Below are positions 326 to 43,592 of a stretch of 64,000 nucleotides of DNA, one piece after another. The stretch is from Eledone cirrhosa. Taxonomy: Eukaryota. Under the pieces are notes generated by a model. That model made no database searches. It had not been told where the DNA came from and saw nothing but the letters and a program-made list of their open reading frames with translations. The stretch spans positions 33,264 through 97,263 of the forward strand of contig CAXHJY010001145.1 of assembly GCA_964016885.1 (NCBI GenBank), written 5' to 3'. The translations under genes and the position numbers were made by a program. The stretch's first letter is position 1, and every line of letters starts with the position of its first letter.

Positions 326-360
326 TTAAAGATTAAAGACCATTTTTGTTTTTGTATTAA

Positions 361-2088: not shown

Positions 2089-2275
2089 AATTGTTTCTAC
2101 TTTTGGCACAAGGCCAGCAATTACCCAGTGCATTACTGGTACTTTATTTTATCGGCCCCGTAAGGATGAAAGGCAAAGTCAACCTCGGCGGGATTTGAAC
2201 TCAGATCGTAAAGGGACGTAACTATGCTGGAAAGCATGGCGTCCGACCCTCTACCGATACTGCCAATCCACCGCC
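2089..2275 (-). mobile_element. Young tRNA-derived SINE
   Basis: Reverse complement has A box TGGCAGTATCGG and B box GTTCAAATCC, and ends GTAGAAACAATT; near-identical to copies at 5669, 5874, 17519, 27284 and 43015. Confidence 0.9.
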
Positions 2276-3680
2276 AAATAAGAATCTTTGCAACTGACTC
2301 AGAAGGTCATCAGCAGAATGGGAGACTGGACATATTTCTCGATGTTATCCAATGGAGAGAAAAAAAAACAACAAAAAAAAAACAACATCAACAATATGTT
2401 GCTAAACGAGAATAAATGTGAGCTAATCTACTTTGGAAAAGAGTATACATTTAAGCTACCCTGTTCTCTTCCCCCAAGAGCATAAAATTAGAGACTTCGA
2501 AGTAACTGTCGATAACTTAAGCTGGAGTGCCCACATATACAACAATGTTGACATTACCCGCATGATGTTCTTGGATCCTTAGAATTTTTCGGTCTCGGGA
2601 TATTCATTACATTAACTGTCTCTTTTCTGTAGCCCACTCTGGTCCCCACACGAATCAAAGTATTATGAAAACTGAAGCACCTCAGAGATCAATTACAAAA
2701 AAGAAAAAAAGATAGACGGCTAGAATATTTTTAATAATAGGCCTACGGGGTGAGGTTGGACCTGGGGTAGAGGGGTGAACATCGTCGAGTATTCCAAATA
2801 TTGATAATAGCTTTAATTTAAATTAATCATATTTTAAAAGATAATGATTAGAAATTCATTCGTATTGATAGATTCCTTATCAACCGTTATTTTGTATATT
2901 GTTTATAGTGAAAGTGGTTGTTGGAAACATACGCCCATTTCTCACACATTTTCGCTTTCACATAAATACACTCACACACTCGCTCCCTTTCTTCTCCGTC
3001 TACTTCTCATTAGCTCTTTTTTCCCCGCACTCTTTCATGCCCCCCCCCCCCATATATATATATATATATATGTATTATGTATTAGTTCGAATATGTGTAG
3101 GTTAATCACCGGTACTTCAGTATATATATATATATGTGTGTGAGGAAAGAGAGATCCCCCTCTTTCCCTCCATACACACACGCCTATAAAATATTACTCC
3201 ACATTCCCCCAACCGTATTTCTCACGTCAAGCCTGGACATGTCTCTGTCAGACCCCACTGTCCTGCTGTCGGAATGTCACATTTTCATGAAGACATTACC
3301 TGAGCTCCTCAACAACAAATTACTTCCGTTGAAGAAGAAATTCAACACCAGATAAGGGAGGTGGGTGGCCAACAGAACTCTAGCTTCTTCTCATCGTTAT
3401 AGCTATTATTCAGTCGTTAAGTTGAGATAACGACCAGAACTGCATCACATCTCATCTGGTCGTCTCATATATTTATTTATATTTACCTTATCGAAACTGT
3501 GTGAATCTTTTGTCTTCTGTGTCAGACTTAACTACAGTCGGCCATTTTCATACATATTTTATCCCCAAACAGACGTGGTGTTTATTCAACTGATTCTTAG
3601 TCGTTTAATAATGCAGTTTTGGTGCTTGACATTTAACATCAGTCATTTTATCAAAAAGAGCGTCCAAATATGCTTAAGGA

Positions 3681-5480: not shown

Positions 5481-5668
5481 GAAGTTTACAAGGTTTACTG
5501 TGGTAACAAACAGTGCCCCTTACATGTTCAGGCAGCCTTTCAGTTAAATTGCATGGTGTGTAAGGCCTATCAAAAATGTTATTGATTTGCGTTAACCTTG
5601 TATTCTATAAGTGTTAAACTAATATACCATAATTGTATTGTATTGTTCTCTGGTACTGTTTTTGATTT

Positions 5669-5861
5669 GGTGAATTGGCAGTATCGGTAGAGGGTCGGAC
5701 GCCATGCTTTGCAGCATAGTTACGTCCCTTTACGGTCTGAGTTCAAATCCCGCCGAGGTTAACTTTGCCTTTCATCCTTACTGGGTCGATAAAATAAAGT
5801 ACCAGTAATGAACTGGGTAATTGCTGGCTTTGTGCCAAAAGTAGAAACAATTATTATTATT
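5669..5861 (+). mobile_element. Young tRNA-derived SINE with (TTA)n tail
   Basis: A box TGGCAGTATCGG, B box GTTCAAATCC, tail TTATTATTAT. Confidence 0.9.
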
Positions 5862-5873
5862 AACACCATTATT

Positions 5874-6059
5874 GGTGGTGGATTGGCAGTATTGGTAGAG
5901 GGTCGGACGCCATGCTTTGACGCATAGAGTTACGTCCCTTTACGGTCTGAGTTCAAATCCCGCCGAGGTTAACTTTGCCTTTCATCCTTACGGGGTCGAT
6001 AAAATAAAGTACCACTAATGCACTGGGTAATTGCTGGCCTTGTGCCGAAAGTAGAAACA

Positions 6060-6098
<39 letters not shown>
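5874..6098 (+). mobile_element. Young tRNA-derived SINE (tandem with previous), long (TTA)n tail
   Basis: Same A/B boxes; (TTA)~13 tail at 6061-6098. Confidence 0.9.
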
Positions 6099-12788: not shown

Positions 12789-13466
12789 TTATACTTTGAG
12801 AAGGTCATGCTGCCAATAAAAACACACACGCACTTGTTGGTTTCCACTTCAATTTATTATAAATTTCCGGTTGGTTGGTTGGTTGGCTAACCGGATGGTT
12901 GTTTATATATTGTCAAAGTTCTTTCGTCACACATCCTGTGACTTCCTCAGTGACTGTGTTTTTTATGTTGTGTCTCTCCTTTGTTCTGCCCTACACCATC
13001 TTATTTTTGTGTGTTGTGTGCTTAGTTTGTGCATGTGTTACACCCGTGTGTGTGTGTGTTTTTATTTATGTATTTACTTGTCACTAGTTGGTTGGTTGTT
13101 CTATCTCTATGTATCTGATTTTCTTTATTAGTTTAGTTTTTGTGTGTGTCTGTATGTCTATATTTTGTCTTTAATTACTAGTTGTGATGTTGTTATTCCA
13201 CTCATGTTTTCTGTTTAATTTTGGTTGGAGTTCGTTTAAGTTTGTCACCTCTGTGATTTGTCTAAGCATTGCATCTTTTCTGTGTGTGGATATAATTTGT
13301 ATCTCTATGTTCTCTAATGTGCCCCTATGTTCTATTTTGGCAAGTTGGTGGAGTACTGATGAGTTTTTCCCATCCTGGAGTTCTCGCCTTATCCTTCCTC
13401 CTATGCTACGGGCTGTTTCACCTATGCATGTGTTTTTATTGGCAGCATGACCCTCCCAAAGTATAA
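12789..13466 (-). mobile_element. Truncated Penelope-like element (GIY-YIG C-terminal part, 3' region, inverted terminal piece)
   Basis: CIGETARSIGGRIRRE...E...LQPKLNRK on the minus strand; 38-bp inverted repeat 12789-12826 / 13429-13466 (2 mismatches); hammerhead motif inside. Confidence 0.75.
12912..12954 (-). ncRNA. Minimal type I hammerhead ribozyme
   Basis: Minus strand GTCA CTGAGGA A GTCACA-GGATG-TGTGAC GAAA GAAC TT TGAC: intact CUGANGA/GAAA core, 6-bp stem II, 4-bp stem I, minimal stem III, UH site. Confidence 0.75.
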
Positions 13467-13524
13467 CAATATCTGTTTCAACACATGTTTTCAGATAAGA
13501 ATCTTGCAAAATGAATTCAAAAAC

Positions 13525-14114: not shown

Positions 14115-14814
14115 GTAAGTATGCCAGGGCAGGGTTTTGTTTTTTTCTTTTGTAATTTTTCATTGTTGTTGCAATTGCACTTTAGCTAAATATTTCCAGG
14201 TGATCAATTAAGTCTACCACCTAAGTGGGTTATGGCAGAGTGCAAATAGATGGAACCAATATCACAAGGTATTTCATTCAATGCTATAAAAGTTCTGCCT
14301 GGCCAGTCACCAAGGAATAGGGAGGGTTGCTAGATGCCCCCTCCCCACTACTTTTCAATGGTGTACCCTCAGATTTACAAAATAGAGTTTATAAAAAAAG
14401 GTTCTGAAAAATGTTCCTTAACGTCTTTGCTTTACTAACAAAGAGAAACAAAGAGAAAAATGGAATTTTTAAAAATAATAAAACAAGTAAAAAATTTCAA
14501 CAAAATGTTCTGAGCCTAGGAGCACCAAAGCTTGGCATTGACCATGGATTCTGCTAATTTAATGCTCTAGATTGGTAATTTATTTATCAACTCCAGAAGG
14601 ATGAAAGGCAAGAATAACATTAGCTGGGTTTTAATTCAGAACATAAAGAGCAAGAATAAACACTCAAAAGCAATATGTCCAATATTCTAATGATTTTTGC
14701 CAATTTAACTTTAGTCAGCTCTAATCGAGCAAACCTATCCCCTAAGATATTCCAGCCATAACTATCTCATCTTTTATTTCAGAGACATTATCCAACATGT
14801 TTTTTTTTCCTTAA

Positions 14815-15025
14815 CCCTTTAGCATTATTCTGTATTTACTATTGTATTTGGTAAAAGCTTTACCTCATATGATTATCTCACATAATATTGAATCTATGAG
14901 ATTTTGGTATTATTTATTTTGAGAAAAATGCCTTAACATAAATATGAGCAGCCAGTTACAGCTGGTTTGAACAGAAAGAGGTGAAAGAATTCTGGTTGGA
15001 TACAGCCAGTTTAAATATTAAAGGG
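14815..15025 (+). mobile_element. piggyBac-type MITE, family A
   Basis: TTAA|CCCTTTAGCATT...ATATTAAAGGG|TTAA; interior homologous to 361-566. Confidence 0.85.
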
Positions 15026-15159
15026 TTAAGATAGTAGGAAATGATTTGAAGGAGATCTGACTGTAATTTCTAGCAGGGCAAGCAACCATATGTAGTTGCT
15101 GACATGGTTTCTTTTTCATATTATTATCCAAAAATCCGTGGACTGCTAAATTAGTATTG

Positions 15160-16066: not shown

Positions 16067-16153
16067 GTAAGAATGTCGCTACTTTGGTACTGCAATGTTA
16101 CTGGCTATTGAAGCGCAATGGCTGTAAGGTTAAGATACTGGTTAGAGGTTTAA

Positions 16154-16374
16154 CCCTTTAGCATTTTCATTACCCTACATTTACTATTGTATTTTCACAG
16201 TAAAGGCTTTACTTCACATAATTATCTCATATAACATTGAATCTATGAGATTTTGATATTATTTATTTTGAGAACAAAACTTTAACAGCAGTATGAGCAG
16301 CCAGTTATGGCTGGTTTAAACAGAAAGAGGTGAGAGAATTCTGACCAGATACAACCAGTTTAAAGGCTAAAGAG
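16154..16374 (+). mobile_element. piggyBac-type MITE, family A
   Basis: TTAA|CCCTTTAGCATTT...GGCTAAAGAG|TTAA. Confidence 0.85.
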
Positions 16375-17261
16375 TTAAGCCTTACTTCAACAGTCAGTCT
16401 GTTTTGTCCTTTGAGATACTTAGAGATATGCTGGAAAAAAAAACTCCCCAGAAAAAAAGAAGAAAAAATAACTCCAGGTTCCACTCTATAATTTGCAGTT
16501 GAGTGATTAGTGGTAGGAAGTGACATCATCCAGCTATAAAATCAATTGTTTCAATATAATACAGCAGCACAGCAAATGTTTTAAGGCCATTTCGCCACAA
16601 CAGCAGAGGGTAGTCAAGTAGGTTTCATGGTAGGTTTCATACTCACCATTGGGCCTTTTTTGAGGCAATGTTTTATGGCCAGATGCTCTTCTTGTTACCA
16701 ACCCTTTTTGTTGATTGATATGACAAAGAGGGATATGGTGTACCCATTCTAATTAGGAGACAGCAATATACACATATGAATGTGTGTATCTATCTGTTTG
16801 TATTCCAACAAGTACACATATATGTACATTTCACTCATGATTGAGTGGCTAATGTTAGGAAGAGAGATCATCTAGCTGCTAAATTACACTTCTGCCTAAA
16901 GAGATTATCAAATTGCAATTGTTAGTGATTTTCAAAGAGAAGGGGAGATAATTTCAAGAGATCATGAATAAGGTCTCAAATAATTTAATGTGTTGCGGAA
17001 AGAACAGTTTGATCATCGTAGTGTTCAAAAGACAACTACTTATGTTTAAATCTATTAGACCTCATCATCATATATATATATATATATAGGCATTGAAGTT
17101 TCCGTTGAAAATTGAAAAAGTCATAGGAGTGAAGAGTGCTCTATGTAAGTACCAGAGCAAAATTTAATGTATAATAAACAATATAATATAATTACCTCAT
17201 TACCAGAGGTTTCCCGAATAAGACGAATACGAAAGAAACGTCCTCATTCGTTCGTCGGACA

Positions 17262-17455
17262 AGGCAATATATGTGCAACCTGCCCACAATGTAAAGAATA
17301 CTACATTGGTGAAACCGGAACGGGTCTACATGACAGAGTTCGAGTACATAAACAACAAATTAGAAACCCCTCTGTCAGAAACACCACATGCAGTGAACAC
17401 TTTGCAACACGCGGAAAGGGAAATTTCACAATTTTCCCCTTTTTTAAAATATCGT
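17262..17455 (+). mobile_element. Penelope-like GIY-YIG endonuclease fragment
   Basis: ATCPQCKEYYIGETGTGLHDRVRVHKQQI...SEHF. Confidence 0.75.
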
Positions 17456-17518
17456 CGGACACAAACACTTCCGAAAAACTGGATCTACCAACTCATAATA
17501 TTATAATAATATATAATT

Positions 17519-17700
17519 GACAGTATCGATAGAGGGTCGGACGCCATGCTTTCTAGCATAGTTACGTCCCTTTACAGACTGAGTTCAAATCCCACCGAGG
17601 TTAACTTTGCCTTTCATCCTTATGGGGTCGATAAAATAAAGTACCAGTAATGTACTGGGTAATTGCTGGCCTTGTGCCAAATGTAGAAACAATTATATAA
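17519..17700 (+). mobile_element. Young tRNA-derived SINE (5' slightly clipped)
   Basis: Matches the SINE at 5669, including B box GTTCAAATCC. Confidence 0.9.
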
Positions 17701-18215: not shown

Positions 18216-19441
18216 CAACATATCTGTGGTCAACTGAATTTATACATGAAAACTCTCAGAAAATTTCATACATCTCAAATCTGATGTCTTCCATTGCTAA
18301 AAGTTGAACATTAATGTTTAGAATTTATAAGTATCTATAATTTCTGCGTTTAAAATTTGTGTGTTTGTATTTTTCAATTTATCATGAACAGTTTATAAAG
18401 TAATTGACAAATTGTAATAACCACACTATATGGTTGATGATCAGTATATTATCATTTGCAAATAGACATATGTATGTGTGCAGATATATAATCATCATAC
18501 ATTGTACTAATCGTTGTTATAATATATTTATAATATTGGGTATGTATTGAAGTTGTTGCTGCCATATAGCAGGTACTAATTGAGTTGTTTGAGGCAATCA
18601 CAAAGCACTCAATGGATCGAGAAGTTAACTATTATCATCCAGAGTAAAACACAACAGTAAAAAAGTGTGAGACTAAGAAAAATTACTGAATGCAGTGGCC
18701 ATACTTATACCACAACAACGATAAATACAAAAAGGTTGAAGACTAACCTGGACCATCTTGAGTCGATTAGAATCGATAGAAATCAATAAAAATCTTCAAT
18801 AGATTTCTGGGAAACCGGAATTACATCACAACTTACATAATGCATCTGCAAATCCTACATGTATCTCCATGATGGAACTGGAGTTCCCATCTTCAGCAAG
18901 TTTTGTTCTCTTGTATTGATCCAAAATTCTGCCTGTTGACATAGGCATTCAACCATAGTAATAATTCTGCCCGTGTCATCATGTGACCTTTCTTACTAGA
19001 AGAGGTTAAGTTGGCTGAACTTTTGGCAGTATTTTCAGGGTGTGAGAACAAAAGGATACTCACAGCCTCAAAACAAAAACTCTCAACTTGCCTTTGTAAA
19101 CAAAAGTAACTAACATATAGATTGTATTAAAGAAGCCAGGGGGATAATAATATTGGGTATGAACTGAAGTTGTAGCTGCCATATAGCAGGTACTAATCGA
19201 GTTGTTTTGAAGAAGTTATTTAACTGTGGTTTGTTCTTATGCCCCTTTGGAAAACTATTAATTACGAGCATGCGTAATTAATACATGCAAAAACCTGAAT
19301 TTTAAACACAGAAAATATAGATTTTTAAAACATTTTTTATACATTAATGTACAACTTTTAGCAATGATGACAGTCTGTTTTGAGATGTATTAATTTTCTA
19401 ATAATTATCATGTGTACTTTAAATAGTTCCCAGATGTGTTG
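18216..19441. mobile_element. Old non-autonomous DNA transposon-like element with ~150-bp degenerate terminal inverted repeats
   Basis: CATTGCTAAAAGTTGAACATTAATGT (~18292) vs ACATTAATGTACAACTTTTAGCAATG (~19341); ATACATCTCAAA vs TTTGAGATGTAT; internal ~60-bp direct repeat at ~18535 and ~19151. Confidence 0.55.
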
Positions 19442-23655: not shown

Positions 23656-24150
23656 AAGTCCTCTGTTAGTCCCCTTCTACTCATGTGATGTCACTCCCCC
23701 AGACTTCATGTAAGTCCTCTGCTAGTCCCCTTCTGCTCATGTGATGTCACTCTCCCAGACTTCATGCAAGTCCTCTGCTAGTCCCCTTCTACTCATGTGA
23801 TGTCACTCTCCCAGACTTCATGCAAGTCCTCTGCTAGTCCCCTTCTACTCATGTGATGTCACTCTCCCAGACTTCATGCAAGTCCTCTGCTAGTCACCTT
23901 CTACTCATGTGATGTCACTCTCCCAGACTTCATGCAAGTCCTCTGCTAGTCCCCTTCTGCTCATGTGATGTCACTCCCCCAGACTTCATGCAAGTCCTCT
24001 GCTAGTCCCCTTCTGCTCATGTGATGTCACTCCCCCAGACTTCATGCAAGTCCTCTGCTAGTCACCTTCTACTCATGTGATGTCACTCTCCCAGACTTCA
24101 TGCAAGTCCTCTGCTAGTCCCCTTCTACTCATGTGATGTCACTGCTCCCA
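23656..24150. repeat. 56-bp minisatellite, ~9 units
   Basis: AAGTCCTCTGCTAGTCCCCTTCT(A/G)CTCATGTGATGTCACTC(T/C)CCCAGACTTCATGC starts at 23656, 23712, 23768, 23824 ... 24104. Confidence 0.95.
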
Positions 24151-24946: not shown

Positions 24947-25147
24947 ATAGGAAAATGGTCAAGACCCCGACGGCATGGCTCAAGCCGTTTCGACGGCTAT
25001 TTCTGGACTAACCAGAAATAGTCGTCGAAATGGCTTGAGCTCTGCCGTCGGGGTCTTGACCATTTTCCTATTACCCACTCTACTACCCTAAGTATTGAGT
25101 ACTCTCGTGCGTTATGGTCCATCTGGTTCCTTACCACACTTCCTTTG

Positions 25148-25150
<3 letters not shown>
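24947..25150 (+). repeat. Fold-back element: 60-bp inverted arms, 5-nt loop, unique 3' tail, within (TA)n
   Basis: 24947-25006 vs 25012-25071, 4 mismatches; (TA)n on both sides. Confidence 0.85.
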
Positions 25151-25182
<32 letters not shown>

Positions 25183-25311
25183 AAAGTTATATTTAATTTG
25201 TTGGGATTCAACAAGCTTAAAAGTTTTATAACTGATATAAAGCACTCAACAGTTTACTGGAGTAAATATTCAATATATTAATAAATGGAAACTATATTTA
25301 TAAAACCATAA

Positions 25312-25378
25312 TTATTTTATTATATATATTTCAAGGGCAACCAAGGCAAATTTTGGTGTGCTTTCATCAGATAAAATA
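25312..25378 (-). ncRNA. Hammerhead ribozyme (unit A, left arm)
   Basis: Reverse complement of the 25458-25525 motif with one substitution in stem II. Confidence 0.7.
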
Positions 25379-25457
25379 CAAAATTTGTTTCATAAATGTT
25401 GACATACCCGCAGAAGAACAACCTTGACGGTTGGAGGTTCGCTGTATTCGATATATT

Positions 25458-25525
25458 TTATTTTATCTGATGAAAGCGCACCAAAATTTGCCTTGGTTGC
25501 CCTTGAAATATATATAATAAAATAA
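25458..25525 (+). ncRNA. Hammerhead ribozyme (unit A, right arm)
   Basis: TTATTTTAT CTGATGA AAGCGCACC-loop-GGTTGCCCTT GAAA TATATA TA ATAAAATAA: 9-bp stem I, intact core, palindromic minimal stem III, predicted cleavage after A25516. Confidence 0.75.
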
Positions 25526-25711
25526 TTATGGTTTTATAAATATAGTTTCCATTTATTAATATATTGTATATATATATATGTAGAAGTTATATTTAATTTG
25601 TTGGGATACAACAAGCAAATATTTTTATAACTGATATAAAGCACTCAACAAATTTTTGGAGTAAAAATACAATATATTAACAAATGGAAACTATATTTAT
25701 AAAACCATATT

Positions 25712-25776
25712 TATTTCATTATACATATTTCAAGAACACCAAAGCAAATTATGGTGCGCTTTCATCAGATAAAATA
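25712..25776 (-). ncRNA. Hammerhead ribozyme (unit B, left arm)
   Basis: Minus strand TATTTTAT CTGATGA AAGCGCACC..GGTGTTCTT GAAA TATGTA TA ATGAAATA. Confidence 0.7.
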
Positions 25777-25920
25777 TAATATAGATCAGTTTTATAAACA
25801 AATATTGACATACCCTTAAAGAATGCAACCATGTCGGTTGACTATCTGGGAGATTCCAACCGACATGATTGCATTCTTTAAGGGTATGTCAATATTTGTT
25901 TATAAAACTGATCTATATTA

Positions 25921-25985
25921 TATTTTATCTGATGAAAGCGCACCATAATTTGCTTTGGTGTCCTTGAAATATGTATAGTGAAATA
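25921..25985 (+). ncRNA. Hammerhead ribozyme (unit B, right arm)
   Basis: TATTTTAT CTGATGA AAGCGCACC..GGTGTCCTT GAAA TATGTA TA GTGAAATA; stem I kept through G-U wobbles. Confidence 0.75.
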
Positions 25986-26221
25986 AATATGGTTTTATAA
26001 ATATAGTTTCCATTTGTTAATATATTATATATAAAGGTATGCAGCCTAGTAGTTAGAGGTTTGGGCTGTCCTCTGTTTGATTCCTGGACCACAGAGTATA
26101 TAATGTTCTTGAGCAAACTATCTTGGGAAAAGTCTTGTTCTTTCAGTTGCTTAAGGCTAATGAAACCGGGATAGACTCCAGCCCCATGAGTCACCAAGCT
26201 TGAGACAGACCTTAACATATT

Positions 26222-26257
<36 letters not shown>

Positions 26258-26258
<1 letters not shown>

Positions 26259-26411
26259 ATTGTTTCTACTTTTGGCACAAGGCCAGCAAATACCTAGTGC
26301 ATTACTGGTACTTTATTTTATCGACCCCATAAGAATTTGAACTCAGAATGGCAAGGGCCGTAACTCTATGCGTCAAAGCATGGCATCTGACCCTCTACCG
26401 ATACTGCCAAA
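26258..26411 (-). mobile_element. tRNA-derived SINE with internal deletion
   Basis: Matches the SINE family; lacks the middle segment. Confidence 0.85.
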
Positions 26412-27283: not shown

Positions 27284-27475
27284 AGGGCGGTGGATTGGCA
27301 GTATCGGTAGAGGGTCGGATGCCATGCTTTGTAGCACAGTTACGTCCCTTTATGGGCTGAGTTCAAATCCCGCCGAGGTTAACTTTGCCTTTCATCCTTA
27401 CGGGGTCGATAAAATAAAGTACCAGTAATATACTGGATAATTGCTGGCTTTGTGCCTATATAAGAAACAATTATT
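27284..27475 (+). mobile_element. Young tRNA-derived SINE
   Basis: A and B boxes, family match. Confidence 0.9.
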
Positions 27476-27486
27476 TATATATATAT

Positions 27487-29150
27487 ACAATCGGTACAGT
27501 ATATGGAAGGAATATATTAGGTTAACACTTGAAGTAGCAGGAGGGGCTTAACCTTTCGGACATTAACCCTTCATCAGGAGATAGAATGAGAAATTAGAAA
27601 GATTGAAGGGACGGGCATGGCGGAATTGGAGTTAAAGAGTCTAAGAGTATGATTGATGTTGTGGATGTGGGAGGGGAGATTGATGATTAACGGGGCGGGG
27701 ATGGTATCTAAGTATTCTGAGATGATTTCAGTTGCATGCGGAAACGATAGAACGGCCGGGATTATTTGGTTTGTGTATTTTGGGGAAGAAGTAGATAGTG
27801 GGTGTGTGAGGGTTGCATACTACAAGGTGGGTGGCTGTGGGGGTAGGGGGTAGGAGAGATGAGTTGGTGAATGGTGGAGGTCACGAGTTGTTGGTGGCCA
27901 GGAGTGGGGTTAGAGGATAAAGGGCAGTAAAATAGGGTATCATGAAGTTGGCGGAGGACCTCAGCCTTGCAGAGGTCTATGTTCCACACCACCACAGTGC
28001 CACCTTTGTCGGTGGGTTTGATGATAATGTCATCACGGCACCGTAGGTTGTGAAGAGCTCGATCCTCGTAAGGTTAGAGTGACGAGAATGCTGATGGAAA
28101 CGGAACCGGTTCACAGTACATCGGCAAGTATCCACAAATGAATGGAGGGTGCTGAACTGGCCAGAGCATGGTGTCCAGTGTGATTGCTGGCGACTGAGAT
28201 GAGTGAGACGAGCTTTAGTTGATGGAAGAATCCTCCAATCTCGGCACATGTGCAGAACTCATCGCAGGTTGATGTGGTTGGTATAAAACACAAACCCCGG
28301 GCAAGGAGGGAGCGCTCAGCTTTGGAGAGTGGTAGGTCCTGGAATATGGTGACAACAGTGGAGGGGCGTGAGGGAGTGAAGGCGGCGGAGGGGCTAAGGT
28401 GGTTAGGCAAAGCATGTGCAGATTCAGTGGTGGGGAGAGGAAAGGGGGGTGGTAGGTGACAGGATAGTAGTGTTAGGGTTGGAGAGGTGAAATGAGTATG
28501 GGTGGTGATGGTAGGGAGTGGAGTGAGTGAAGTTTGTGGTTTTTGATGGAAGTGAGGAAATTGAAGAGGAAGCGATTGAGGTGAAGGATGAGGGATTGGG
28601 TGAGGATGGGAGAGAACAGATTTGGGTGAGAGTAGATCGGATAGCTGGCAAGAGGAGCGGGTAAGGATGGGCTCAGTGATGGGAGTGGAGTAAGAGGTGG
28701 GGAGGAACTTGAGGTAGAAACCTTGGGGAATGAGGTGGTGGTGGAGACAGCAACTTAAAAATGAGATGTGACTGTTATTTTTTGTTTTGGTGAAGATGAG
28801 GTTGGAGAGATGCAAGGAGGATTGGATGTAAATAGGAGGGAGAGGTTGGAGGAAGCGTTTGAGAGTGGAATGGAGCTGGCGGAGAAAAGATTGCGATTGG
28901 GCATGATGAAGGTACTGGGGTGAGAGAGAAATAGACAGGTGAGAAGAAGAAGGTGGAAGTAAGAAGAGTATAGTGGAGGAAAAGTGATAGAGAGTCGTGG
29001 TGTATTTAAATAATGCAAGAAGCAAAGAAAATATCAGTGATATGAAAAGATTTCCTGGTGGAAGTTCTGGTAAACTCTGGGTGTATATCCAGTTCCAGAG
29101 TGAAAATCCAATTTGAAAATCTAACAAATTTGAGAGGTCCACGTAAGCAT
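27487..29150 (-). mobile_element. Internally deleted Penelope-like element (N-terminal region and RT start joined to the terminal repeat)
   Basis: LSKAERSLLARGLCFIPT, DKGGTVVVW, PKIHKPNNPGRSIVSAC; jumps to the terminal repeat at ~27620; strong strand purine bias. Confidence 0.8.
27547..27580 (-). ncRNA. Minimal hammerhead motif in PLE terminal repeat
   Basis: CTGATGA A GGGT-TAAT-GTCC GAAA GGTTAAG; homologous motifs at 29231-29266 and 29750-29785. Confidence 0.6.
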
Positions 29151-29171
29151 TGATATATATATATGTATGTA

Positions 29172-29340
29172 AAAGGTAAAGAATATGGAAGGAATATATT
29201 AGGTTAATGCTTGAAATAGCAGGAAGAGGATCTTAACATTTTGGACACTAGTCCTTCATCACAAGAAAGAATGAAAAATTAGAAAGATAGTGGAATCGGA
29301 AAAAATGTTTTTAGAGAAAAATAACAGGTCCCTGTGTACA
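29172..29340 (-). mobile_element. Solo PLE terminal repeat with degenerate hammerhead
   Basis: Homologous to 27490-27620 and 29690-29870; GTGATGA A GGAC-TAGT-GTCC AAAA. Confidence 0.7.
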
Positions 29341-29633: not shown

Positions 29634-29664
<31 letters not shown>

Positions 29665-31188
29665 AAAAAGTAAACAGAAATAACAACACAATCGGTACAG
29701 TATATGGAAAGGATATATTAGGTTAACGCTTGATATAGCAGGAAGAGGGTCTTAATGTTTTGGACGGTAGTCCTTCATCAGAAGAAAGAATGAGAAATAA
29801 GATAGATTGAGGGGACGGGCAGGTTGGAATTGGAAAAAAATGTCTTTAGATAAAAATAACAGGTCCATTCATGTTGACATCTCTTGCAAAACTGTTGGTG
29901 CTGGCGTTTGGTGTATGATTTATTTTCTAGAAAAGTGGATGATGGAGTGCGTCTACCTGAAATGGAAAAAAAAACGTTTTGTAAAAAGAGCTATACTTGA
30001 GCACGTGCGTAAGCATGTGTGTGTGTGTATGTTATTACACGTCTGTAAGAAATGTGTGTGTATATGTGAGTAAGAAGAAATGTGTGTGTATATGTGAGTA
30101 AAAGAGTGTGTTTGCATGTAAGTACGAAGCTATGAACAAAAGTATGTTAATATAAGGGTGTGTATGTGTATATACAGAGCAGTGAAGGGAAAAGTGGAGT
30201 GAGCATATATAGTCGGCATGTATTAGTTGTAAGAGAAGATGTTAATGATCAAGAGAAAGCGATAGGAATCTAAGGGTGTGATAATGGACGGGGTATTAGA
30301 GAAATTGGGGAGGTGAGTTGAGTCCAAGAGGGGAATAGGACCCAAGGCAGTGAATCAGACTTTGTTCAGTCCCGGTGCGCGAGGCCTGTGATCCATGATG
30401 TAAAAGGACACCTAGGACTGAAACATGTAGGGAAGAATGACCAGGAGAACAGAAATGACGGGCGACAGGAGTATCCAAACCGAGTCATATGTCCCTCAAA
30501 TGCTTGGCAAAACGGTCTGCCATACGGCTTCCTGTTTTTATGATATATAAAGACCCATAAAGTGAACACCAGAGGGCATAGACGTGGGTGGATGTGCAGG
30601 TGAAAGAGTGGCGGATACGAAAGACCCGTTAGAGCCTGTAAGAGTAGTGAGGGTGGAAATGAAGGAACAACTGTTGCAGCGGGAACAGGAACAAGGATGA
30701 GAGCCGGGTGGAGTCGTGGGAGAGGATGAGAAGGAACTGCAAACCAGGAGGTTGCGGAGGTTGCAGGTGCACTTAAAAGCAGTAATGGGTGGGTTTGGAA
30801 AAAAGCGAGAAGTGACTGGGTCAGAAGAGAGGATGTGGAAGGAACGGAGGATATGTCGCCGGAGTGGTAGAGTGATGGGGTGGTAGGTGAGAGGGAAAGG
30901 GGTGAGGTGAGAGGGCTGTGGTGCAGTCTGTTTCATGGGCGTGGGTAAGAGCAGCTTGGATCAGGATGGGGGGATATCCATACTGGATGAAGCAGGAAGC
31001 CATGCAAAGGGAATGGGTTTTGAAATCGTCCTGGCTACAGAGCCGATGAAGATGGAGGAATTGGGAATAGGGTATGGAGTGTTTGGTGTGGGTTGGATGG
31101 GAGGAGGTGATGTCGAGGTAAGATTGGGAGTCTGTTGGTTTAATGAAGATGGAAGTAGAGAGGGTGTGGTGAGAGTGATTAATAGATA
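29665..31188 (-). mobile_element. Neptune-type Penelope element, 3' part (RT end, Zn finger, GIY-YIG, terminal repeat)
   Basis: KPTDSQSYL..SSHP.HTKHSIPYSQF; PCSCSRCNSC linker; VYALWC..LYI-KTGSRMADRFAKH..PVARHF..EQSLIHCLGSYSPLGLN; hammerhead-like motif at 29750-29785. Confidence 0.9.
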
Positions 31189-33167
31189 TGTTTCTTTATT
31201 AGCCACAGGGGCACAAAAAAGAAGGGGACAATTACAAAGGTGGGAAGTTTACATACAATAAAAACGTGTAAAATACTATCACAAATGCAAATTAAAAGTT
31301 AATCGATTTTCCCCAATAGGGAGAGACATTACATATGGATAACGCATACCCCCGAAAAAAATGTGCAACCCGCATCTCCAGGAGTACGAAGAGTTTGTAC
31401 CCCTTTCCTCTCCTCCTCTTTTTCCTCAACCTACAGGCTGATATAGAGAGAAGGCCCATTCACTCGGGCCATTCTCGCCACTTTCACCCACCTTTCATAA
31501 AACTTGCTGGGGTACAGCACCTCTCTCTCCATCCTGATTCTTTTTCCAAAGTGGTATTTGAAAAAAAGAATCAGTTGTTGGCCGGAGAGAAAGGTGTCTG
31601 ACCTCAGCCCTTTTAACCTCGTCCACCATACAACCTCTTTCGCCATAGCTATCACATAAAGGAAAACCGCCTCTCCTTCGTTTTTGAAGGAGGGTGGCGG
31701 TTTGATCATGACAATGGACACGGTGGTCAACCGGATTGGTCCCTCCCACGACAATAGTCATTCTACATAGCCACACAGGTCGGTAACGTCCGGGCAGTGT
31801 ATGAATGCGTGCGCAACGGTTTCTTTGTCTGGCACGCATCTCGGACAAATCTTTTTCGAAGGGTCGCTGCTCGGGCACCCATGTCTGTAGAGTTTGTCTC
31901 GAACTGGTAGAGCTCCTTGGTAGCACTGCCAGGCCAGGGACTTTTGGAAGTTGTCCATCGGTCCCGGGCGGAAGGTCCTACCGAACAGACTGGCCAGTTC
32001 GTCTTCCTCCACGCCTAGAGTTTCTCCGAGCGCGTCATCGCACTTGCTGCGGATCAACCCTCTATAGAATGACGAAGTGGAGTTTCCACTGATCGCTGGG
32101 TCCACCTGCCAGAGGGCTGTGAGCGCCTGAGCACATTCGATTTGCCAGTCGCCCATTTTCCTCAGTCTTTGCTTGACCCAGGACTGCAGCTGGGTCAGCG
32201 AGACAAGTCGTGGGAAGGCTTGCCTCACGAACGGGGCCCACACCAGTTTTGCGGTGAGGAATACGTAGAGATGCCACAGCCTGAGTGCGTGTTTGAGCAT
32301 CGTCAACCACGGCATCCCCAGCCCTCCGTTGGAAGGGTGTTGGCAGCAGATGGATCTTCTCACCAAAGGAGCCCGCTTCTTCCAAAGGAATTGGAAGAGC
32401 ACGCGCTCTATTTTGGTGAGTGTTTTGGCTGGACAAGGCACGACGGTCAAGCGGTAATAGATGACGGAGGCTATAAAAGTGTTTGCTACCTCCGTTCGAC
32501 CTTTCAAGGATAGTTTTCACTCGGCCCACTTCTGGGTGAGTGCAAACACCTTGGCCGTCACCTCGTTCCAGTTCTTCTCCCCCTGGATGTCCGCCCCAAA
32601 CCAGACCCCGAGCAGCTTCACCGGTCCTTCTGTCCAGCATCCAACGACGCCATCGGAAGGCATCGGTCTGCCTCTCCACAATCCGAGTTGCAAACCGATG
32701 GACTTGTCCCGGTTCAGCTTAGCTCCTGTGAACCTTTCGTATTCCTTCAGTAAGGTGCCGACTTCCTCGATTTGCGAGGTGCTGGACACCATTACTGTCA
32801 CATCGTCGGTGTAGGTGGACACCACTTTCCGCAGTCCCGGTTCTAGAGGGATGCCCTGCAATAGCTCCAACTTCCGCAGTAGTGGCTCGAGAGTCAGTAC
32901 GTACAGAAGGGAGGAGAGAGGGCATCCTTGTCGGATGGATCGCGTGATATGGAACGGCTCCGAGAGGTAGCCATTCACCTTGACCCTTGAGCAGATGTTG
33001 CTGTTGTGCATTGCAGCAATCCAGCCCCTGAACACGGGTCCGAAGCCTGCCGCCTCGAACACCGCATCTAGTTAACGATGGTCAACCCTATCGAAAGCCT
33101 TAGACTGATCCAAGTTGATCAGGGCCCCACCAAAGCCAGGTTTACACCCAACCCTCTCTATGATGTA
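31189..33167 (-). mobile_element. 5'-truncated Tx1/L1-clade copy 3 (diverged subfamily) inserted into the Penelope RT
   Basis: DQSKAFDRV, RQGCPLS, YTDD, GGLGMPWL, CPRC..ETVAHAFIHC; 13-bp TSD TGATTAATAGATA at 31176-31188 and 33168-33180. Confidence 0.92.
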
Positions 33168-33767: not shown

Positions 33768-35425
33768 CGGGATAACAGGTTATGGTTATAGGCAGACTAC
33801 TTAGATGTAGTCCAGTTAGAGTACTCCGTGTAGTGGATGGTATTAACGTGTGGCTTAGTTTGATTCAACAAGATGTTTCCATAGTGATGCTGCGAGTTCG
33901 CAGTGATTTCTATGTAGTTTATACTTGGAGTAATAATAATTCAAGAAAGAAGAGTGACATGGTTTGCTATACAATAAGGGCTTTATTCACATTGTTGACA
34001 ATTGTTTCTTTGATCTGGTAGGTCTAGAGTTCGCTACTCGCTTGATTTTGCGTCAATCGATCTCCAATTCTTTGTTTATAACCAGTCGTTTTCATCAGAG
34101 CACGCGAAAGTGAAGAAGATACACAAGGCATGGCTTTTATAGAGGAGTGGTATTAAACCAGAACAATAATATCAATAATAAAATAACTAGATACTGAATA
34201 GTTAAAATAATAACATCAATATCAGTAAGAAATAGAGTATAATAATGAATCTAGCATATTAAACGAACTGATATGATACAGATGTATGAAATTGACATGT
34301 GAAAACTGCTATAGGGTACATTAGATGTAGTGTTAAGGTGGTGAATAGATAACTGATAAAATGTACTTGGAGTCAGGATTTAAGAGGTATATGCGTGTGC
34401 TGTAGGTCTGAAGGCACGCTAGCAATAAACCGGAGATTTATTTATTGTTTGACAGATAAACATTTTCGTTGTATTAATTTAGTGAGAATGATAGGGTGGG
34501 TGCAAAGAAATATATAGTTTTTATGTGGTGTTAAGTGAAGTTGTAGATTCGTTATTTAAGTGGCCTATTCTAAAAATTGGGATTGTTAGTTCGAATCATG
34601 GGGGTTTAGTTTTCACAACATCAATAACAAATAGTGTATAAATAAGACAATAATAACAATAATAGAGACAGTAAAAGTAATAAAATAGTAAAATATGCAT
34701 GGTCGATAGAGAGAACATGATGAATAATATTAGGGATACATTGAGATGATCATAATAATAATAAGAGGAAAATAAGATTTCAAGGAGTGTAGGAGTAATA
34801 AGATAATGTACTTAGAATTAAGTTCATCTGTTCGAGATCATGAGTGCTAATGTGAGATACGTAGATACAATTGTTTGGTACGAAGGAGTAAACAACAGCA
34901 AAGATGGGATTGATTTATGGGCTGATAAGATAGTTGTAGACATTACTGCCCCATCCTAGTGGTATAGAATTAGGGAGGCTAAAAGCTGTTTATAGAAGAT
35001 TATGGTTCTGTAGTGGGCTGTGTGAGAATGTGGATTTCATATGTTAATATAGGGGATGCTGGTTTGAATCAAGGTGGTTTAAATCTCGCGAATTTTGTAG
35101 CAATCCTATGTCTGCAGAAAATTGACCTTTCTATTTTGCTGTTGAGTAGCATTTTATCGTTCCTTAAGATATGTAGCAATTCAAGGCTGCAGAGCCCGCA
35201 ATGGGATATACCGCTGCTATAGGCCTTTGCAGCCGCTAATTTCGATCAGTTAATATTGTAATCAAGGTTTTTGTCCTTAAGTTGCCAGAGTTTATTGGCG
35301 AGGATTGTAGAATTTACCAGCGAGTAGCGAACTCTAGACCTACCAGATCAAAGAAATAATTGTCAGCAATGTGAATAAAGCCTTTATTGTATAGCTAACC
35401 ATGTCACTCTTCTTTCTTGAATTAT
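33768..35425 (-). mobile_element. 5'-truncated Penelope-like element (Naiad-like endonuclease C-terminus) with inverted terminal piece
   Basis: Minus strand 35318-35069: NSTILANKLWQLKDKNLDYNIN*SKLAAAKAYSSGISHCGLCSLE..LLNSKIE..FCRH; 107-bp inverted repeat 33936-34042 / 35319-35425; ATATATATAAATATATA on both flanks. Confidence 0.75.
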
Positions 35426-35879: not shown

Positions 35880-38800
35880 TTAGACCTGGTTGTTTTTCGG
35901 TTTGCTAGGTGGACTGCGGAATTTGGAAAGTTTGAACACTCAATGACAATGTCACAGATAAAGATAAATTCACATCCCACTGCAGGACGAGAATGCAAGG
36001 ACCCCTCTTTATTTCAAACATGGATGACCAACATGATTCCGTCTCCCACACCCCTCCCTGCCCCTCCAACCCATCCATTCCACCCAACTTCAGAGTCGGT
36101 ACCATGAACATAAGCACATTGAAAGGCTGCTCAAATGAGGTTGTAGAGATGCTTGAACATAAGGAAGTTGATGTTTGTTGAGTTCAAGAGACTAGGTGGA
36201 GAGGTGGGTCTGCTAGATTCAGTGTGGGTAAAAAATGATGCTATAAACTTTTCTGAGTGGGAAATGACAACGGACTGGGTGGAGTAGGAATTATGTTAGC
36301 AGAAAAATGGGTAGATAAGGTAATTGCTGTAAATAGAGTGAATGACAGAATAATTAAAATAAGACTAGTTGTAAATAGAACTATTGTGACAATAATATCC
36401 ACTTATGCACCCCAATCTGGTCTACCTGATGTTATAAAGGACAGGTTCTATGAGTCGCTAATGCACACTACCTCCCAAATAACCGACAGCGACTACTTAA
36501 TTATTGCTGGCGACCTAAATGGTCACGTTGGACAACATAGTGATAGCTATAATAGAATCCATGGAGGCTATGGGTTTGGTAATAGAAATGAGGAAGGCTT
36601 CATAATCCTGGAATTCTGTGACGCTAATAACATAACTATCTGTAACATAAACTTAAAAAAATGAGACAATCACTTGATCACCTATAGATCAGGGGAACAC
36701 ACCAGCCAGATAGATTATATCCTTACTAGAAGATGTGACAAAGTGTAAACACTAAATCCCTCCCCCATGAAGAATGCACCTTCCAACATAGCCTAGTAGT
36801 TAGTGACCTCATAGTCACGAATAGACGTACTCGACGACAGAGCAGGACTACCTTGAGGAGAAGAATATGGAAGTTGAAGGACCCCACAGTCAGTGACAAA
36901 TTAAAAAGCTTATTACTTGATGCTTTTGACAATAAGGAAGAGCAATTAGAGACGTACAATATAGAGGAACAGTGGGAATTCTTGAAAGTTAACCTACTGA
37001 AGGTGAGGGATGAAATCTGTGGCTGGAGCAGACCTATTGGCAGGAGGGGAGTAACTTGGTGGTGGAACAGTAAGGTGGAGGAGACAATCAAGGCCAAAAA
37101 GCAGGATGGCAGGGTGGGAGAAATAGAGAACACTATCAAGTGGCCAGGAGAGAAGCTAGGAGACAAGTGTACTTTGCAAAAAGGGAAGCAGAGGATAGAA
37201 AGTTCAAGCATGTTCTACAATGTGAGGTGTTCGGATTGCTAGACAATGTGTCAAGGAAAACATTGATATTGTCGGGGAGAAGTGTGTCCGTAATGATAAT
37301 AGTGTACTTGCCCTCACTGATACTGATAAGAAGGTAGCTTGGAAGTGTCACTACGAGAGACTACTAAATGAGGAGAATAAATGGGAAAAAGATAGTCTGC
37401 CCTAAATCGATCCAATAGAAGGACCAGCGGTGCAAGTTAAAGGTAGTGTAATAAGTAAGGTAATCAAAGATATAAAGACAAGCAAAGCAGCTGGGCCTTC
37501 GGAGATAGTTGCTGAGATGTTGAAAGCATCTGGAATGGTGGGATATACTATGGTCACCCGGATAGTAAATCAAGTAATACAGAATGGGGTCATACCAAAA
37601 GACTGGCGTAGCAGCATCATCATTAATTGCTACAAGGGTAAAGGGGATGTTCTAGATAGGGGAAACTATAGAGGTATTAAGTTAGTTGACCAGGTCATGA
37701 AGGTCACAGAAAGAGTTATAGCACAACTAATCAGAGATCAAATTGATCTAGATGAAATGCAGTTTGGGTTTGTGTCAGGTAAAAGTACAACAGACGCTCT
37801 TTTCCTTGTACGACAACTACAAGAGAAGTACCTAGCTAAAAGTAAACCTCTCTACTTAGCTTTTGTAGACCTGGAGAAAGCCTTTGACAGAGTCCCCCGC
37901 TCCATTATCTGGTAGGCTCTTAGAAAACTAGGTGTAGATAAATGGCTTGTGAGAGCTATACAAGCCATGTATAAAGAAACAGTCAGTAAGGTTAGAATTA
38001 ACAATGAATATAGTGAAGAATTTAGCGTAAAAGTTGGTGTTCATCAAGGCTCTGTCCTTAGCCCCCTTCTGTTTATTATTGCCCTTCAGGCTATAACAGA
38101 GGAGTTTAAGGCCGGCTTCCCATGGGAACTTCTATACGCAGATGATCTAACTCTCATAGCTGAATCTATGGCTGAACTAAAGAAGAAATTCCAATCATGG
38201 AAGCATGGCCTAGAATCAAAAGGCCTTAAAGTTAACTTGTCTAAGACTAAAGTTCTAGTATGTAGAAAGGAAAATAGGGCACAGGTGCCTTCTGGGAAAT
38301 GGCCATGTTCAGTGTGTAGGAAAGGAGTAGGTAGAAATTCCATTTTATGTCCCAAATGCAAACTATGGGTACATAAAAGATGTAGTGGGATCACAGGTAA
38401 ACTATCTAAGAACGTAGATTTTATATGTGGCCGATGCTCAGGTGCAATAAGTAGCAAGTGCCCACAGGATACTAGCTCCTTCTATTGCCCAGATGGTTCT
38501 ATAGAAATAGTGGACACTTTCCGTTATCTGGGTGATAAAATCAGCAGTGGTGGAGGGTGCTCTGAAAGTACAGTAGCTAGAGTCAGAACGGGATGGAAAA
38601 AGTTCAGAGAGCTTATACCGCTGTTGGCCACAAAAGATTTCCCTTTAAAAATGAAAGGCAGATTGTATGATGCCTGTATACGAACAGCAATGTTACATGG
38701 CAGTGAGACATGGGCATTGCGTGAAGAGGACCTGCGCAGACTGGAAAGGAACGAAGCATGCATGCTCCGTTGGATGTGTAATAGTAATATTAAACATCCA

Positions 38801-39502
38801 AAACACATAAATGAACTAAGTGAGAAATTAGGAATAAGAGGGATCAGATGCTGTTTACTTGAGAGAAGACTACGTTGGTATGGTCACGTGATGCGCATGA
38901 ACGACGACAGTTGTATAAAAAAGTGCAGGGCGATTAAAATTGATGGAAGTTACGGAGTTGGTAGACCCAGAAAAACCTGGGATGATTTGATAAATTCCGA
39001 CCTTACACACTTGCATCTCTCTAAGACAATGTTACTGAACCGAGATCTTTGGCGCCACACAGTAACACAGAAGACCCACCTTGCCTATGTACAAAGCGAA
39101 ACCTACAGTCAGTAGGCACCTCCTAACCAAATATACACCCCACTCCACTACCCCTACTCCATCCTCCCACTCCCACCAACACCACTCTTTCTCTGTAAAG
39201 TTGGTACCACAACATCCAGTCCAAATTAATGAGATAATGGGATCGAGATCATGTAGGTGTCATGACAAAAAAACACAGTCCACGCTGTAATGTGGCTGTG
39301 TAGGTAACACGGTAAAAAGTTCCCAGTCCATACTGTAAATGTGGTTGGTGTTAGGAAGGGCATCCAGTCGTAGAAAACCTGCCAGATAATCCTATATGAG
39401 CGAGACATGGTCACCCGACCAACCTTGCGTCAAATTGAGACAACTCCCGACTAACCCATGCTAGTGTGGAAGATAGACATTAAACGATGATGATGATGAT
39501 GA
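35880..39502 (+). mobile_element. Near full-length RTE-clade LINE with PHD finger (inactivated by several stops and frameshifts; 5' boundary uncertain)
   Basis: APE motifs VGTMNI, VQETRW, YAPQ, GDLNGHVG, SQIDY; RT motifs NYRGIKL, FVDLEKAFDRVP, GVHQGSVLSP, YADD (38135); WYGHVMR..GRPRKTW; (GAT)n tail. Confidence 0.93.
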
Positions 39503-43014: not shown

Positions 43015-43224
43015 CTTTAAACTGCCAAGTCATTATAATTGTCTCTACTTTAGGCACAAGGCCAGCAATTACCCAGTGCATTACTGGTACTTTATTTTAT
43101 CGACCCCCTAAGAATGAAAGGCAAAGTCAACCTCGGCGGGATTTGAACTCAGATCGTAAAGGGACGTAACTATGCTGGAAAGCATGGCGTCCGACCCTCT
43201 ACTGATACTGCCAATCCACCGCCA
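43015..43224 (-). mobile_element. Young tRNA-derived SINE with candidate TSD
   Basis: Family match; AAGTCATTATAAT occurs on both sides (~43027 and ~43224). Confidence 0.85.
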
Positions 43225-43592
43225 AGTCATTATAATGACATCACTGTTATCTCATTGAGGTAGTCTGCAAGTGAGCTCCATAGAAATTATCATTTGCTCA
43301 TCTTTCCATCCGGAGGGTAGCTCATGTTGCTTATGTCCTGTCTAAACATTATTATTCTGTCATATATGTTGGTTACTTCAATTATGAGCCAGTTAGCGAA
43401 ATTTCTACATGGTCGCTCAACCTGCTAGACATAGCTAAATCTTCCCCAAATAACACACTACACTAAGAAGAAATAGAAGGATTCATTGGTTAATCTAGTC
43501 TTAGATACACAATATCTTAAAATAAGATGAAATGTTTACAGCTGGAATGCTCAATTCTTTGCTCTCCCCACCGCTCAATCTGTTTTTTTAAT

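What the first reader, a model, noticed from the sequence alone, without database searches (positions are those of the whole stretch)
25180..26026. Two fold-back non-coding elements, each carrying intact hammerhead ribozymes on both strands
Seen: unit A has 108-bp arms and unit B has 170-bp arms. Arms within a unit are almost identical, while A and B differ visibly, so each fold-back probably formed independently; both outer arms stop at the same point (AATATATTAA). Each arm holds a type I hammerhead: stem I TATTTTAT, CUGAUGA, stem II AAGCGCACC/GGT(T)G(C/T)CCTT, GAAA, AU-rich minimal stem III, UA site. A-to-B differences spare the core and keep pairing (stem I ATAAAATA becomes GTGAAATA through G-U wobbles). 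Established: PLE terminal repeats and retrozymes carry minimal hammerheads, and PLE insertions often have an inverted truncated repeat at the 5' end. Inference: this is a small non-autonomous ribozyme retroelement family targeting (TA)n. A transcript from either strand would form a long rod containing one sense and one antisense ribozyme, so it could self-inhibit, give dsRNA/siRNA, or yield retrozyme-like circular RNA.
Basis: partly seen in the sequence, partly recalled or inferred. Interest (0 to 1): 0.82.

Follow-up and report, generated by a model that had tools for sequence, protein, structure and literature searches.

The report
Fold-back Penelope retroelement ends with hammerheads
Two short hairpin-shaped repeats, each with a hammerhead-ribozyme motif on both strands, are likely the dead, cut-short ends left by a Penelope-type jumping gene, a known pattern, and their tails share a small hairpin that may mark where the element's reverse transcriptase starts.

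Summary
There are two fold-backs (arms 111/115 and 167/170 identical), each arm with a type I hammerhead motif; 0 of 20,000 shuffles match it. This inverted-copy-plus-tail layout is the published insertion form of Penelope-like elements (PLEs), hammerheads on both strands included. Reads show a very abundant family whose copies end at the same short site, and a subfamily with two compensatory stem II changes. Target, hammerhead-to-end spacing and a bulged tail hairpin point to the (TA)n-targeting Hydra clade. The hairpin lies 4-8 nt past the short end in four window elements and appears in 3 of 6 published consensuses. No ORF link was obtained, so clade membership is inferred. In a read-through RNA each ribozyme is predicted to be fully paired with its antisense arm, so circular RNA is unlikely. 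A fixed-length non-autonomous family is not excluded: three longer arms start within 4 nt of each other. Mostly ordinary; the tail hairpin is a modest new lead.

The parts
25149..25179 (.). (TA)n target tract between element C and unit A
25180..25270 (-). Unit A tail (91 nt), present on the left arm only; long 3' end at 25180 abuts (TA)n
25244..25263 (-). Bulged tail hairpin of A (RCTC-stem-TT-GAGY), 7 nt past the short end; candidate RT start signal (inferred)
25271..25452 (-). Unit A longer arm; 25385-25452 continues upstream and forms the loop; 5' end about 17 nt upstream of a small 5-bp hairpin at 25419-25433
25313..25378 (-). Type I hammerhead motif, A left; core 25370, H17 25321; one private mismatch in stem II
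25453..25566 (+). Unit A inverted, tail-less arm; short 3' end at 25566 abuts (TA)n
25459..25524 (+). Type I hammerhead motif, A right; core 25467, H17 25516; 8-nt A-U palindrome at helix III
25567..25579 (.). (TA)n tract between A and B
25580..25670 (-). Unit B tail (90-91 nt); long 3' end at 25580
25643..25662 (-). Bulged tail hairpin of B, 8 nt past the short end
   Evidence: variation
25671..25840 (-). Unit B tail-bearing arm, 5'-truncated at the small hairpin
25712..25776 (-). Type I hammerhead motif, B left; core 25768, H17 25720
25841..26026 (+). Unit B tail-less arm; here it is the longer at the 5' end, since the 16-nt loop 25841-25856 reads as upstream sequence on +; short 3' end at 26026 followed by TA repeats
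   Evidence: table 5c
25921..25985 (+). Type I hammerhead motif, B right; core 25929, H17 25977; two G-U pairs in stem I
24950..25148 (+). Element C: third fold-back of an unrelated family in the same (TA)n cluster. Arms 24950-25006 and 25012-25068 (53 of 57), 3' half of a hammerhead, 77-80-nt tail with the same bulged hairpin at 25077-25100

Best explanation
Units A and B are likely two separate, 5'-truncated insertions of the 3' end (pLTR) of a Penelope-like retrotransposon, probably of the (TA)n-targeting Hydra clade, each with an inverted arm and a one-sided ~90-nt tail. Inferred steps: the element's GIY-YIG endonuclease nicks both strands of a (TA)n tract. Its RT starts cDNA at two internal sites of uncleaved RNA, about 41 and 132 nt past the hammerhead and flanking a conserved bulged hairpin. 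Both cDNAs run through the hammerhead, stop early and are joined head to head. The hammerhead is carried along from the parent element, where it would likely need a dimer or protein help. At this locus it is predicted to be inactive, because each copy pairs with its antisense arm.
For: Shown: the head-to-head layout, one-sided tail and (TA)n flanks; unit-specific differences 8, orientation-specific 0. Family-wide short end: 6 of 24 displayed loose-end rows show (TA)n joined at 25667-25679, in 3 of 4 runs laid. 9 of 15 displayed joints change strand, at different places. Published: an inverted 5'-truncated copy plus tail is the typical PLE insertion; dual minimal hammerheads 100-700 bp apart on opposite strands are described; in vitro a PLE protein nicks and extends both strands and starts at two internal sites bounding the tail on uncleaved RNA, and its hammerhead needs the protein. 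For the Hydra clade: (TA)n target, universal hammerheads, presence in molluscs, and an inverted 5' copy with hammerheads on both strands in Penelope-13_HM. Hammerhead-to-end distances in 24 Hydra families are 25-42 nt (10) or 80-148 nt (11); A and B have 41-42 and 132-133. The tail hairpin lies 4-8 nt past the short end in A, B, C and D and, by eye, is in 3 of 6 File S7 consensuses. Neighbour D has the same layout behind an endonuclease end with the CxxC and CxH motifs given for Hydra. Neighbour E has a hammerhead and an inverted end behind a GIY-YIG C-terminus.
Against: No ORF is linked to A or B, and all three frames have stops. No significant sequence match of A or B to D or the other PLE ends (best p 0.019 of 21 comparisons). 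Four exact motifs from the locus were absent from the PMC8557442 supplement. D's Hydra-type endonuclease rests on motifs read by eye; three searches found no relative. The tail is ~90 nt against the published 30-40. The hammerhead lacks the G10.1-C11.1 pair and the inserted base of the PLE consensus, and the C15.2-G16.2 pair that all Hydra rows show. Three longer arms begin within 4 nt of each other, which random truncation does not predict. The hairpin descriptors were written after seeing the hits; single hairpins fold weakly (z -0.55 to -2.8); 4,787 of 12,455 reads of one run lack a base in the hairpin stem. Strand-changing joints in raw reads can be library chimeras.
Confidence: 0.72

Rival explanations
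1. A short (~275 nt), fixed-length non-autonomous element that borrows a Hydra-type PLE protein. The insertion chemistry is the same as in the best reading, but the template is a small non-coding RNA with its own 5' end.
For: The longer arms of A and B and one assembled contig start 17, 16-17 and 13 nt upstream of the same small hairpin (table 5c). Depth stays high from the tail to ~25815. No upstream loose end among the 6 displayed for run X1. Non-autonomous PLE derivatives are known (Chlamys MRC1; retrozymes).
Against: n = 3. The laid stretch ended there, so longer copies could not show; 368 of 392 loose ends were not displayed. An RT stall at the hairpin would give the same boundary. Neighbours D and E with the same layout are plainly truncated coding elements.
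Confidence: 0.2
2. A non-LTR retrozyme locus whose same-strand hammerheads (462 nt apart on +, 398 on -) release a circular RNA.
For: Type I motifs with a palindromic helix III; spacing within the range of retrozyme monomers.
Against: No head-to-tail array in the window, and no tail-to-head joint among 15 of 24 joints displayed. Arms end 41 or 132 nt past the ribozyme, not at the cut site. Predicted stem pairing is 0.00 in whole-unit context, and helix III pairing is 0.00 even in the monomer.
Confidence: 0.04
3. A fold-back DNA transposon (MITE), or an assembly fold-back artefact with a chance hammerhead look-alike.
For: Long inverted repeats in TA context; no Rfam hammerhead hit. B's own junction is covered only in run X1, which may be the sample the window came from.
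Against: The ends are asymmetric, junctions differ between units, arms carry 3-4 differences each, the motif beats shuffles, a subfamily shows compensatory stem II changes, and strand-changing joints also occur in a run of another study.
Confidence: 0.04

Closest known systems
Complex insertions of EN+ Penelope-like elements: inverted 5'-truncated pLTR plus one-sided tail (PMC3846280, PMC8557442, PMC11167929)
   Same: Head-to-head inverted arms, tail on one side, two discrete 3' ends, hammerhead inside the repeat, AT-rich or microsatellite target.
   Different: Tail ~90 nt against the stated 30-40. No ORF start beside the hammerhead, unlike Anolis Poseidon. No coding part is left.
Hydra-clade PLEs (PMC8557442; Penelope-13_HM, Hydra-2_Amil, Hydra-2_Ajap, Hydra-1_Crog, Hydra-1_Obim)
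   Same: (TA)n target, hammerhead near the 3' end with an 8-9-nt palindromic helix III and often U before GAA and A at H17, similar end spacing, same bulged hairpin in the long consensuses, inverted copy with hammerheads on both strands.
   Different: No sequence identity shown. U15.2-A16.2 instead of C-G, A10.1-U11.1, longer stem II with a C-C mismatch. RT and endonuclease not seen.
PLE minimal hammerheads (PMC4209133)
   Same: Full core, long helix II, palindromic helix III suited to a dimer, pairs on opposite strands 100-700 bp apart.
   Different: No inserted base between 9 and 10.1, no G10.1-C11.1, and an 8-bp or longer A-U-rich helix I.
Metazoan non-LTR retrozymes (PMC7229834; bioRxiv 10.64898/2026.07.22.740005)
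   Same: Non-coding, type I hammerhead, unit of a few hundred nt, PLE-related.
   Different: Not in head-to-tail arrays; inverted arms and PLE tail present; no circular RNA shown.

Membership tests
EN+ Penelope-like element | Belongs to an element with one RT + GIY-YIG ORF | tested here: inconclusive
   No ORF in A or B, but the copies stop ~105 nt upstream of the hammerhead; no genome held; upstream sequence not retrieved
EN+ Penelope-like element | Hammerhead motif in the terminal repeat | tested here: met
EN+ Penelope-like element | Inverted 5'-truncated copy adjacent at the 5' end | tested here: met
EN+ Penelope-like element | Tail on one end, two discrete 3' ends | tested here: met
   length ~90 nt rather than 30-40
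EN+ Penelope-like element | Variable 5' truncation | tested here: inconclusive
   Shorter arms and joints vary; three longer arms start within 4 nt
EN+ Penelope-like element | Target-site duplication | tested here: inconclusive
   Flanks are (TA)n
Hydra clade of PLEs | RT placement in the clade; endonuclease with CxxC and CxH, without CCHH | not testable with these tools
   No protein in A or B; motifs seen by eye only in neighbour D; searches blank
Hydra clade of PLEs | Insertion into (TA)n | tested here: met
   also true of Naiads, so not diagnostic
Hydra clade of PLEs | Hammerhead close to the 3' end | tested here: met
   41-42 and 132-133 nt against 25-148 nt in 23 of 24 families
PLE minimal hammerhead | Core CUGANGA, GAAA, UH with helices I and II | tested here: met
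PLE minimal hammerhead | Palindromic helix III region for dimer formation | tested here: met
   8-nt palindrome; predicted duplex only -3.2 and -2.2 kcal/mol
PLE minimal hammerhead | Inserted base between 9 and 10.1 and G10.1-C11.1 pair | tested here: not met
   A-U pair directly after the core against the consensus; hence an atypical variant
PLE minimal hammerhead | Self-cleavage | not testable with these tools
   needs an in vitro assay
Non-LTR retrozyme | Head-to-tail tandem monomers, each with a hammerhead | tested here: not met
   none among 15 of 24 joints displayed
Non-LTR retrozyme | Accumulates as circular RNA | not testable with these tools
   needs RNA reads
MITE or fold-back DNA transposon | Terminal inverted repeats form both ends and the interior is fixed | tested here: not met
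   One-sided tail; junctions differ

The most novel reading that the evidence does not exclude
A very abundant, fixed-length (~275 nt) SINE-like parasite of Hydra-clade Penelope elements, with a selected atypical hammerhead, that inserts as fold-backs by priming both target strands. Its tail hairpin is the clade-wide RT start signal, which sets the two 3' ends and gives this clade 80-165-nt tails.
Probability: 0.2. Interest if true: 0.5.

Novelty: new member of a known kind. Interest (0 to 1): 0.27.

Why it matters
The layout and the two-strand hammerheads are known by-products of PLE insertion, so the finding as framed is ordinary. The useful part is small. A conserved bulged hairpin sits just past the short 3' end in families with no other detectable similarity, and tails are two to four times the stated length. 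I found neither described (searches; subscription journals and Repbase are not covered). If the hairpin is the RT start signal, it gives a ready template for testing how PLEs choose two start sites and make inverted repeats. Unit B, where the tail-less arm is the longer at the 5' end, argues for two cDNA syntheses rather than one cDNA folding back on itself.

Tried and rejected
No whole genome is held. Rfam: no hit at gathering; at E up to 10, 21 hits, hairpin-type RNA families and no hammerhead, dismissed as shape matches. Motif scans: one metagenome hit, a chance match inside a microbial ORF; none in viral or prokaryote contigs. No RNA holder listed. Word-based homologue searches for the E and D endonuclease ends were blank, as was the atlas. 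An apparent likeness of the A tail to the D tail was not significant (p 0.13). The hammerhead-like motif at 19961 is not a copy. The structure string was off by one column, so model R1 and those counts were dropped and redone. Core conservation in reads: 0 of 12 displayed variant positions in 25712-25776 fall in 13 core positions, p 0.05 with 29 of 69 rows hidden; not counted as support. Read ends at 25598 and 25747 in the RAD run are likely restriction sites (inferred) and were ignored. Summed contig depth was not used as a copy number. The small shares of organisms B-E were not read as habitat. Naiad origin considered: Naiads lack canonical hammerheads and are remnants in cephalopods. Earlier notes for this place and sequence: none.

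Full report
Setting. The first 43.6 kb of the window are AT-rich animal DNA full of SINE, LINE and PLE fragments; the rest is a 34-bp satellite. It looks like a cephalopod genome to me; that is recalled and was not tested. No whole genome is held.

Observation. Both fold-backs are real. A has arms 25271-25384 and 25453-25566 (111 of 115 columns identical); B has 25671-25840 and 25857-26026 (167 of 170). A and B share 220 of 264 columns. In the 107 columns common to all four arms, 8 differences follow the unit, none follows the orientation and 3 are private. The junctions also differ, so each fold-back formed separately. With stem I of 8 bp or more it occurs in 0 of 20,000 shuffles of the monomer, and 4 times in 43.6 kb against 0 in each of 40 shuffles; thresholds were chosen after seeing it. 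Rfam has no hammerhead match. Among the four arms 75 of 76 cells pair, but no pair changes on both sides, so they give no covariation evidence.

The arms point head to head. Only the left arm of each unit runs on for a 90-91-nt tail to a long end; the right arm stops at a short end. All ends abut TA repeats. A third, unrelated fold-back, C (24950-25148), sits in the same TA cluster with the 3' half of a hammerhead and a 77-80-nt tail.

The family. I laid 4 of the 11 listed runs on the B monomer. Run X1, which may be the source sample, gave 7,522 contigs, with summed depth 2e5 to 3.8e6 over 25578-25827 against 12 over 25848-25860 at the junction. That means very many copies but is not a count. 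RAD reads from another study under the same species label gave 32,134 reads. Six of 24 displayed loose-end rows (392 in all) show TA repeats joined at 25667-25679 in three runs, so the short end is family-wide. Nine of 15 displayed joints (24 in all) change strand, at different places; in raw reads some may be chimeras. One subfamily (loose end behind 25732; 13,438 reads in X9, likely inflated by a restriction site; 3 contigs in X5) shows two compensatory changes in stem II with the C-C mismatch kept; only 30 letters were shown, so its core was not seen. None of the 40 displayed variant rows (69 in all) falls in the core, which is not significant (p 0.05).

Comparison with print. An inverted 5'-truncated copy plus a one-sided 30-40-bp tail is the typical PLE insertion (PMC3846280, passages; PMC8557442, passages). 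Pairs of minimal hammerheads 100-700 bp apart on opposite strands were reported, with low activity and only as dimers (PMC4209133, parts 1-2 of 4). In vitro, Anolis Poseidon protein nicks and extends both strands, starts at two internal sites bounding the tail, uses uncleaved RNA, and its hammerhead cuts only with protein (PMC11167929, parts 1-2 of 4 and passages). Retrozymes are tandem arrays (PMC7229834, passages; bioRxiv 10.64898/2026.07.22.740005, parts 1 and 3 of 5, supplements closed). Octopus has recent Penelope families (PMC13282606, passages). AUA is a natural cleavage triplet (PMC1636495, search listing only). Two earlier scan notes on other genomes judged the same pattern ordinary; they are leads, not support.

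Which clade. Hydra-clade PLEs insert into (TA)n, all carry hammerheads and occur in molluscs, and Penelope-13_HM has an inverted 5' copy with hammerheads on both strands (PMC8557442, section 11 and supplement parts 1, 2, 52, 53). From those tables the distance from stem I to the element end is 25-42 nt in 10 of 24 families, 80-148 nt in 11, 58-65 in 2 and 350 in 1. I left out one family whose motif lies at the 5' end, one antisense row and two families without a row. A and B have 41-42 and 132-133 nt, as if curators had stopped at either the short or the long end. A bulged hairpin (RCTC, short stem, two-base bulge, GAGY, then RCT) starts 7, 8, 5 and 4 nt past the short end in A, B, C and D; in D it encloses ~100 extra nt. 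A strict descriptor hits A, B and C only (shuffle mean 0.135 in 200). A wider one adds 17158 and 18645 (mean 0.017, maximum 2 in 300). Both were written after seeing hits. The 17158 site is the best independent check: it follows a decayed hammerhead that model R2 finds at E 0.016 and precedes (TA)n. By eye the hairpin is in the three long consensuses of the six in File S7, loosely in a fourth, and the other two end before it. In reads, 4 of 4 displayed substitutions in 25640-25662 are in bulge or loop (nominal p 0.002), but one run often lacks a base in the stem, and single hairpins fold weakly. D (33768-35425) has the same inverted arm and tail behind an endonuclease end with the CxxC and CxH motifs given for Hydra; this is by eye, and searches were blank. 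E has a hammerhead at 12950 and a 43-nt inverted end behind a frame with 41 relatives; 4 of 10 scanned match Pfam GIY-YIG, 2 above the cut-off, and two printed ones show RT motifs that I recognise from recall. Against the assignment: no ORF in A or B, no significant match to D or other ends, no exact motif in the supplement, and atypical pairs 10.1-11.1 and 15.2-16.2.

Mechanism. Shown: layout, two ends, target, independent formation, abundance. Inferred: the endonuclease nicks both strands of (TA)n; RT starts at the long and the short site around the hairpin; both cDNAs pass the uncleaved hammerhead, stop early and are joined head to head. In A the tail-bearing arm is 68 nt longer at the 5' end. 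In B the tail-less arm is 16 nt longer, as judged by likeness to A's upstream sequence and to one contig. A single cDNA that starts at the tail and folds back cannot give B, so two syntheses are likelier. The ribozyme is predicted to be poor: the active shape costs 7.1 and 4.5 kcal/mol over the best fold, helix III pairing is 0.00 in monomers, and the dimer helix is worth 2-3 kcal/mol. In whole-unit transcripts stem I and II probabilities are 0.00, and the rods fold at -181 to -275 kcal/mol. Such RNA could feed RNA silencing, but nothing here shows transcription.

Unexplained. The longer arms of A, B and one contig start 17, 16-17 and 13 nt upstream of the same small hairpin. A fixed-length non-autonomous template or an RT stall would both do this. 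The data cannot decide, because the laid stretch ended there.

Verdict. The feature is real and works like a PLE insertion of the inverted-copy-plus-tail kind (best reading 0.72; 0.92 with the non-autonomous rival, which shares the mechanism). Hydra-clade membership is likely but untested on protein. Novelty: a new member of a known kind; interest 0.27, mainly for the tail hairpin and the long tails.

Noticed in passing
window 24950-25148: Third fold-back element C of an unrelated family in the same TA cluster; it folds back inside stem II of a hammerhead and has a 77-80-nt tail with the shared hairpin.
   Followed up: yes
window 33768-35425 (-): Truncated PLE with an endonuclease end of Hydra type by motif, ~1 kb AT-rich UTR, TATA-like box, decayed hammerhead, 107-nt inverted arm and ~165-nt tail.
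   Followed up: partly
window 12790-13471 (-): GIY-YIG C-terminus, UTR, near-canonical hammerhead at 12950 and a 43-nt inverted end; both arms end at the same point, with no tail and no tail hairpin.
   Followed up: partly
window 17085-17270 (-): Single PLE 3' end with a decayed hammerhead, the tail hairpin at 17158 and (TA)n, back to back with a GIY-YIG fragment at 17270-17520 (+).
   Followed up: partly
window 18530-18650 (-) and 19147-19207: Tail hairpin with a longer stem, and a partial direct repeat of what follows it; no clear hammerhead nearby.
   Followed up: no
window 27478-27630, 29154-29331, 29660-29866 and 30366-31195 (-): Pieces of another PLE family with hammerhead-like motifs at 27577 and 29781 and decayed coding fragments with a cysteine linker.
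   Followed up: no
window 149-574, 14796-15031, 16149-16379: Copies of a ~230-nt repeat with short inverted ends, likely a MITE.
   Followed up: no
window 2088-2277, 5668-6072, 17516-17697, 26243-26410, 27286-27487, 43032-43225: Copies of a ~190-nt SINE-like repeat, two of them in tandem at 5668-6072.
   Followed up: no
window 43603-64000: 34-bp satellite, about 600 copies at 96% match, strongly strand-skewed; the unit holds a telomere-like hexamer (recalled).
   Followed up: no
window 36257-39115 (+): Largely open LINE frame with an RT domain and a PHD finger inside it.
   Followed up: no
window 23656-24150: 56-bp tandem repeat, about 9 copies.
   Followed up: no
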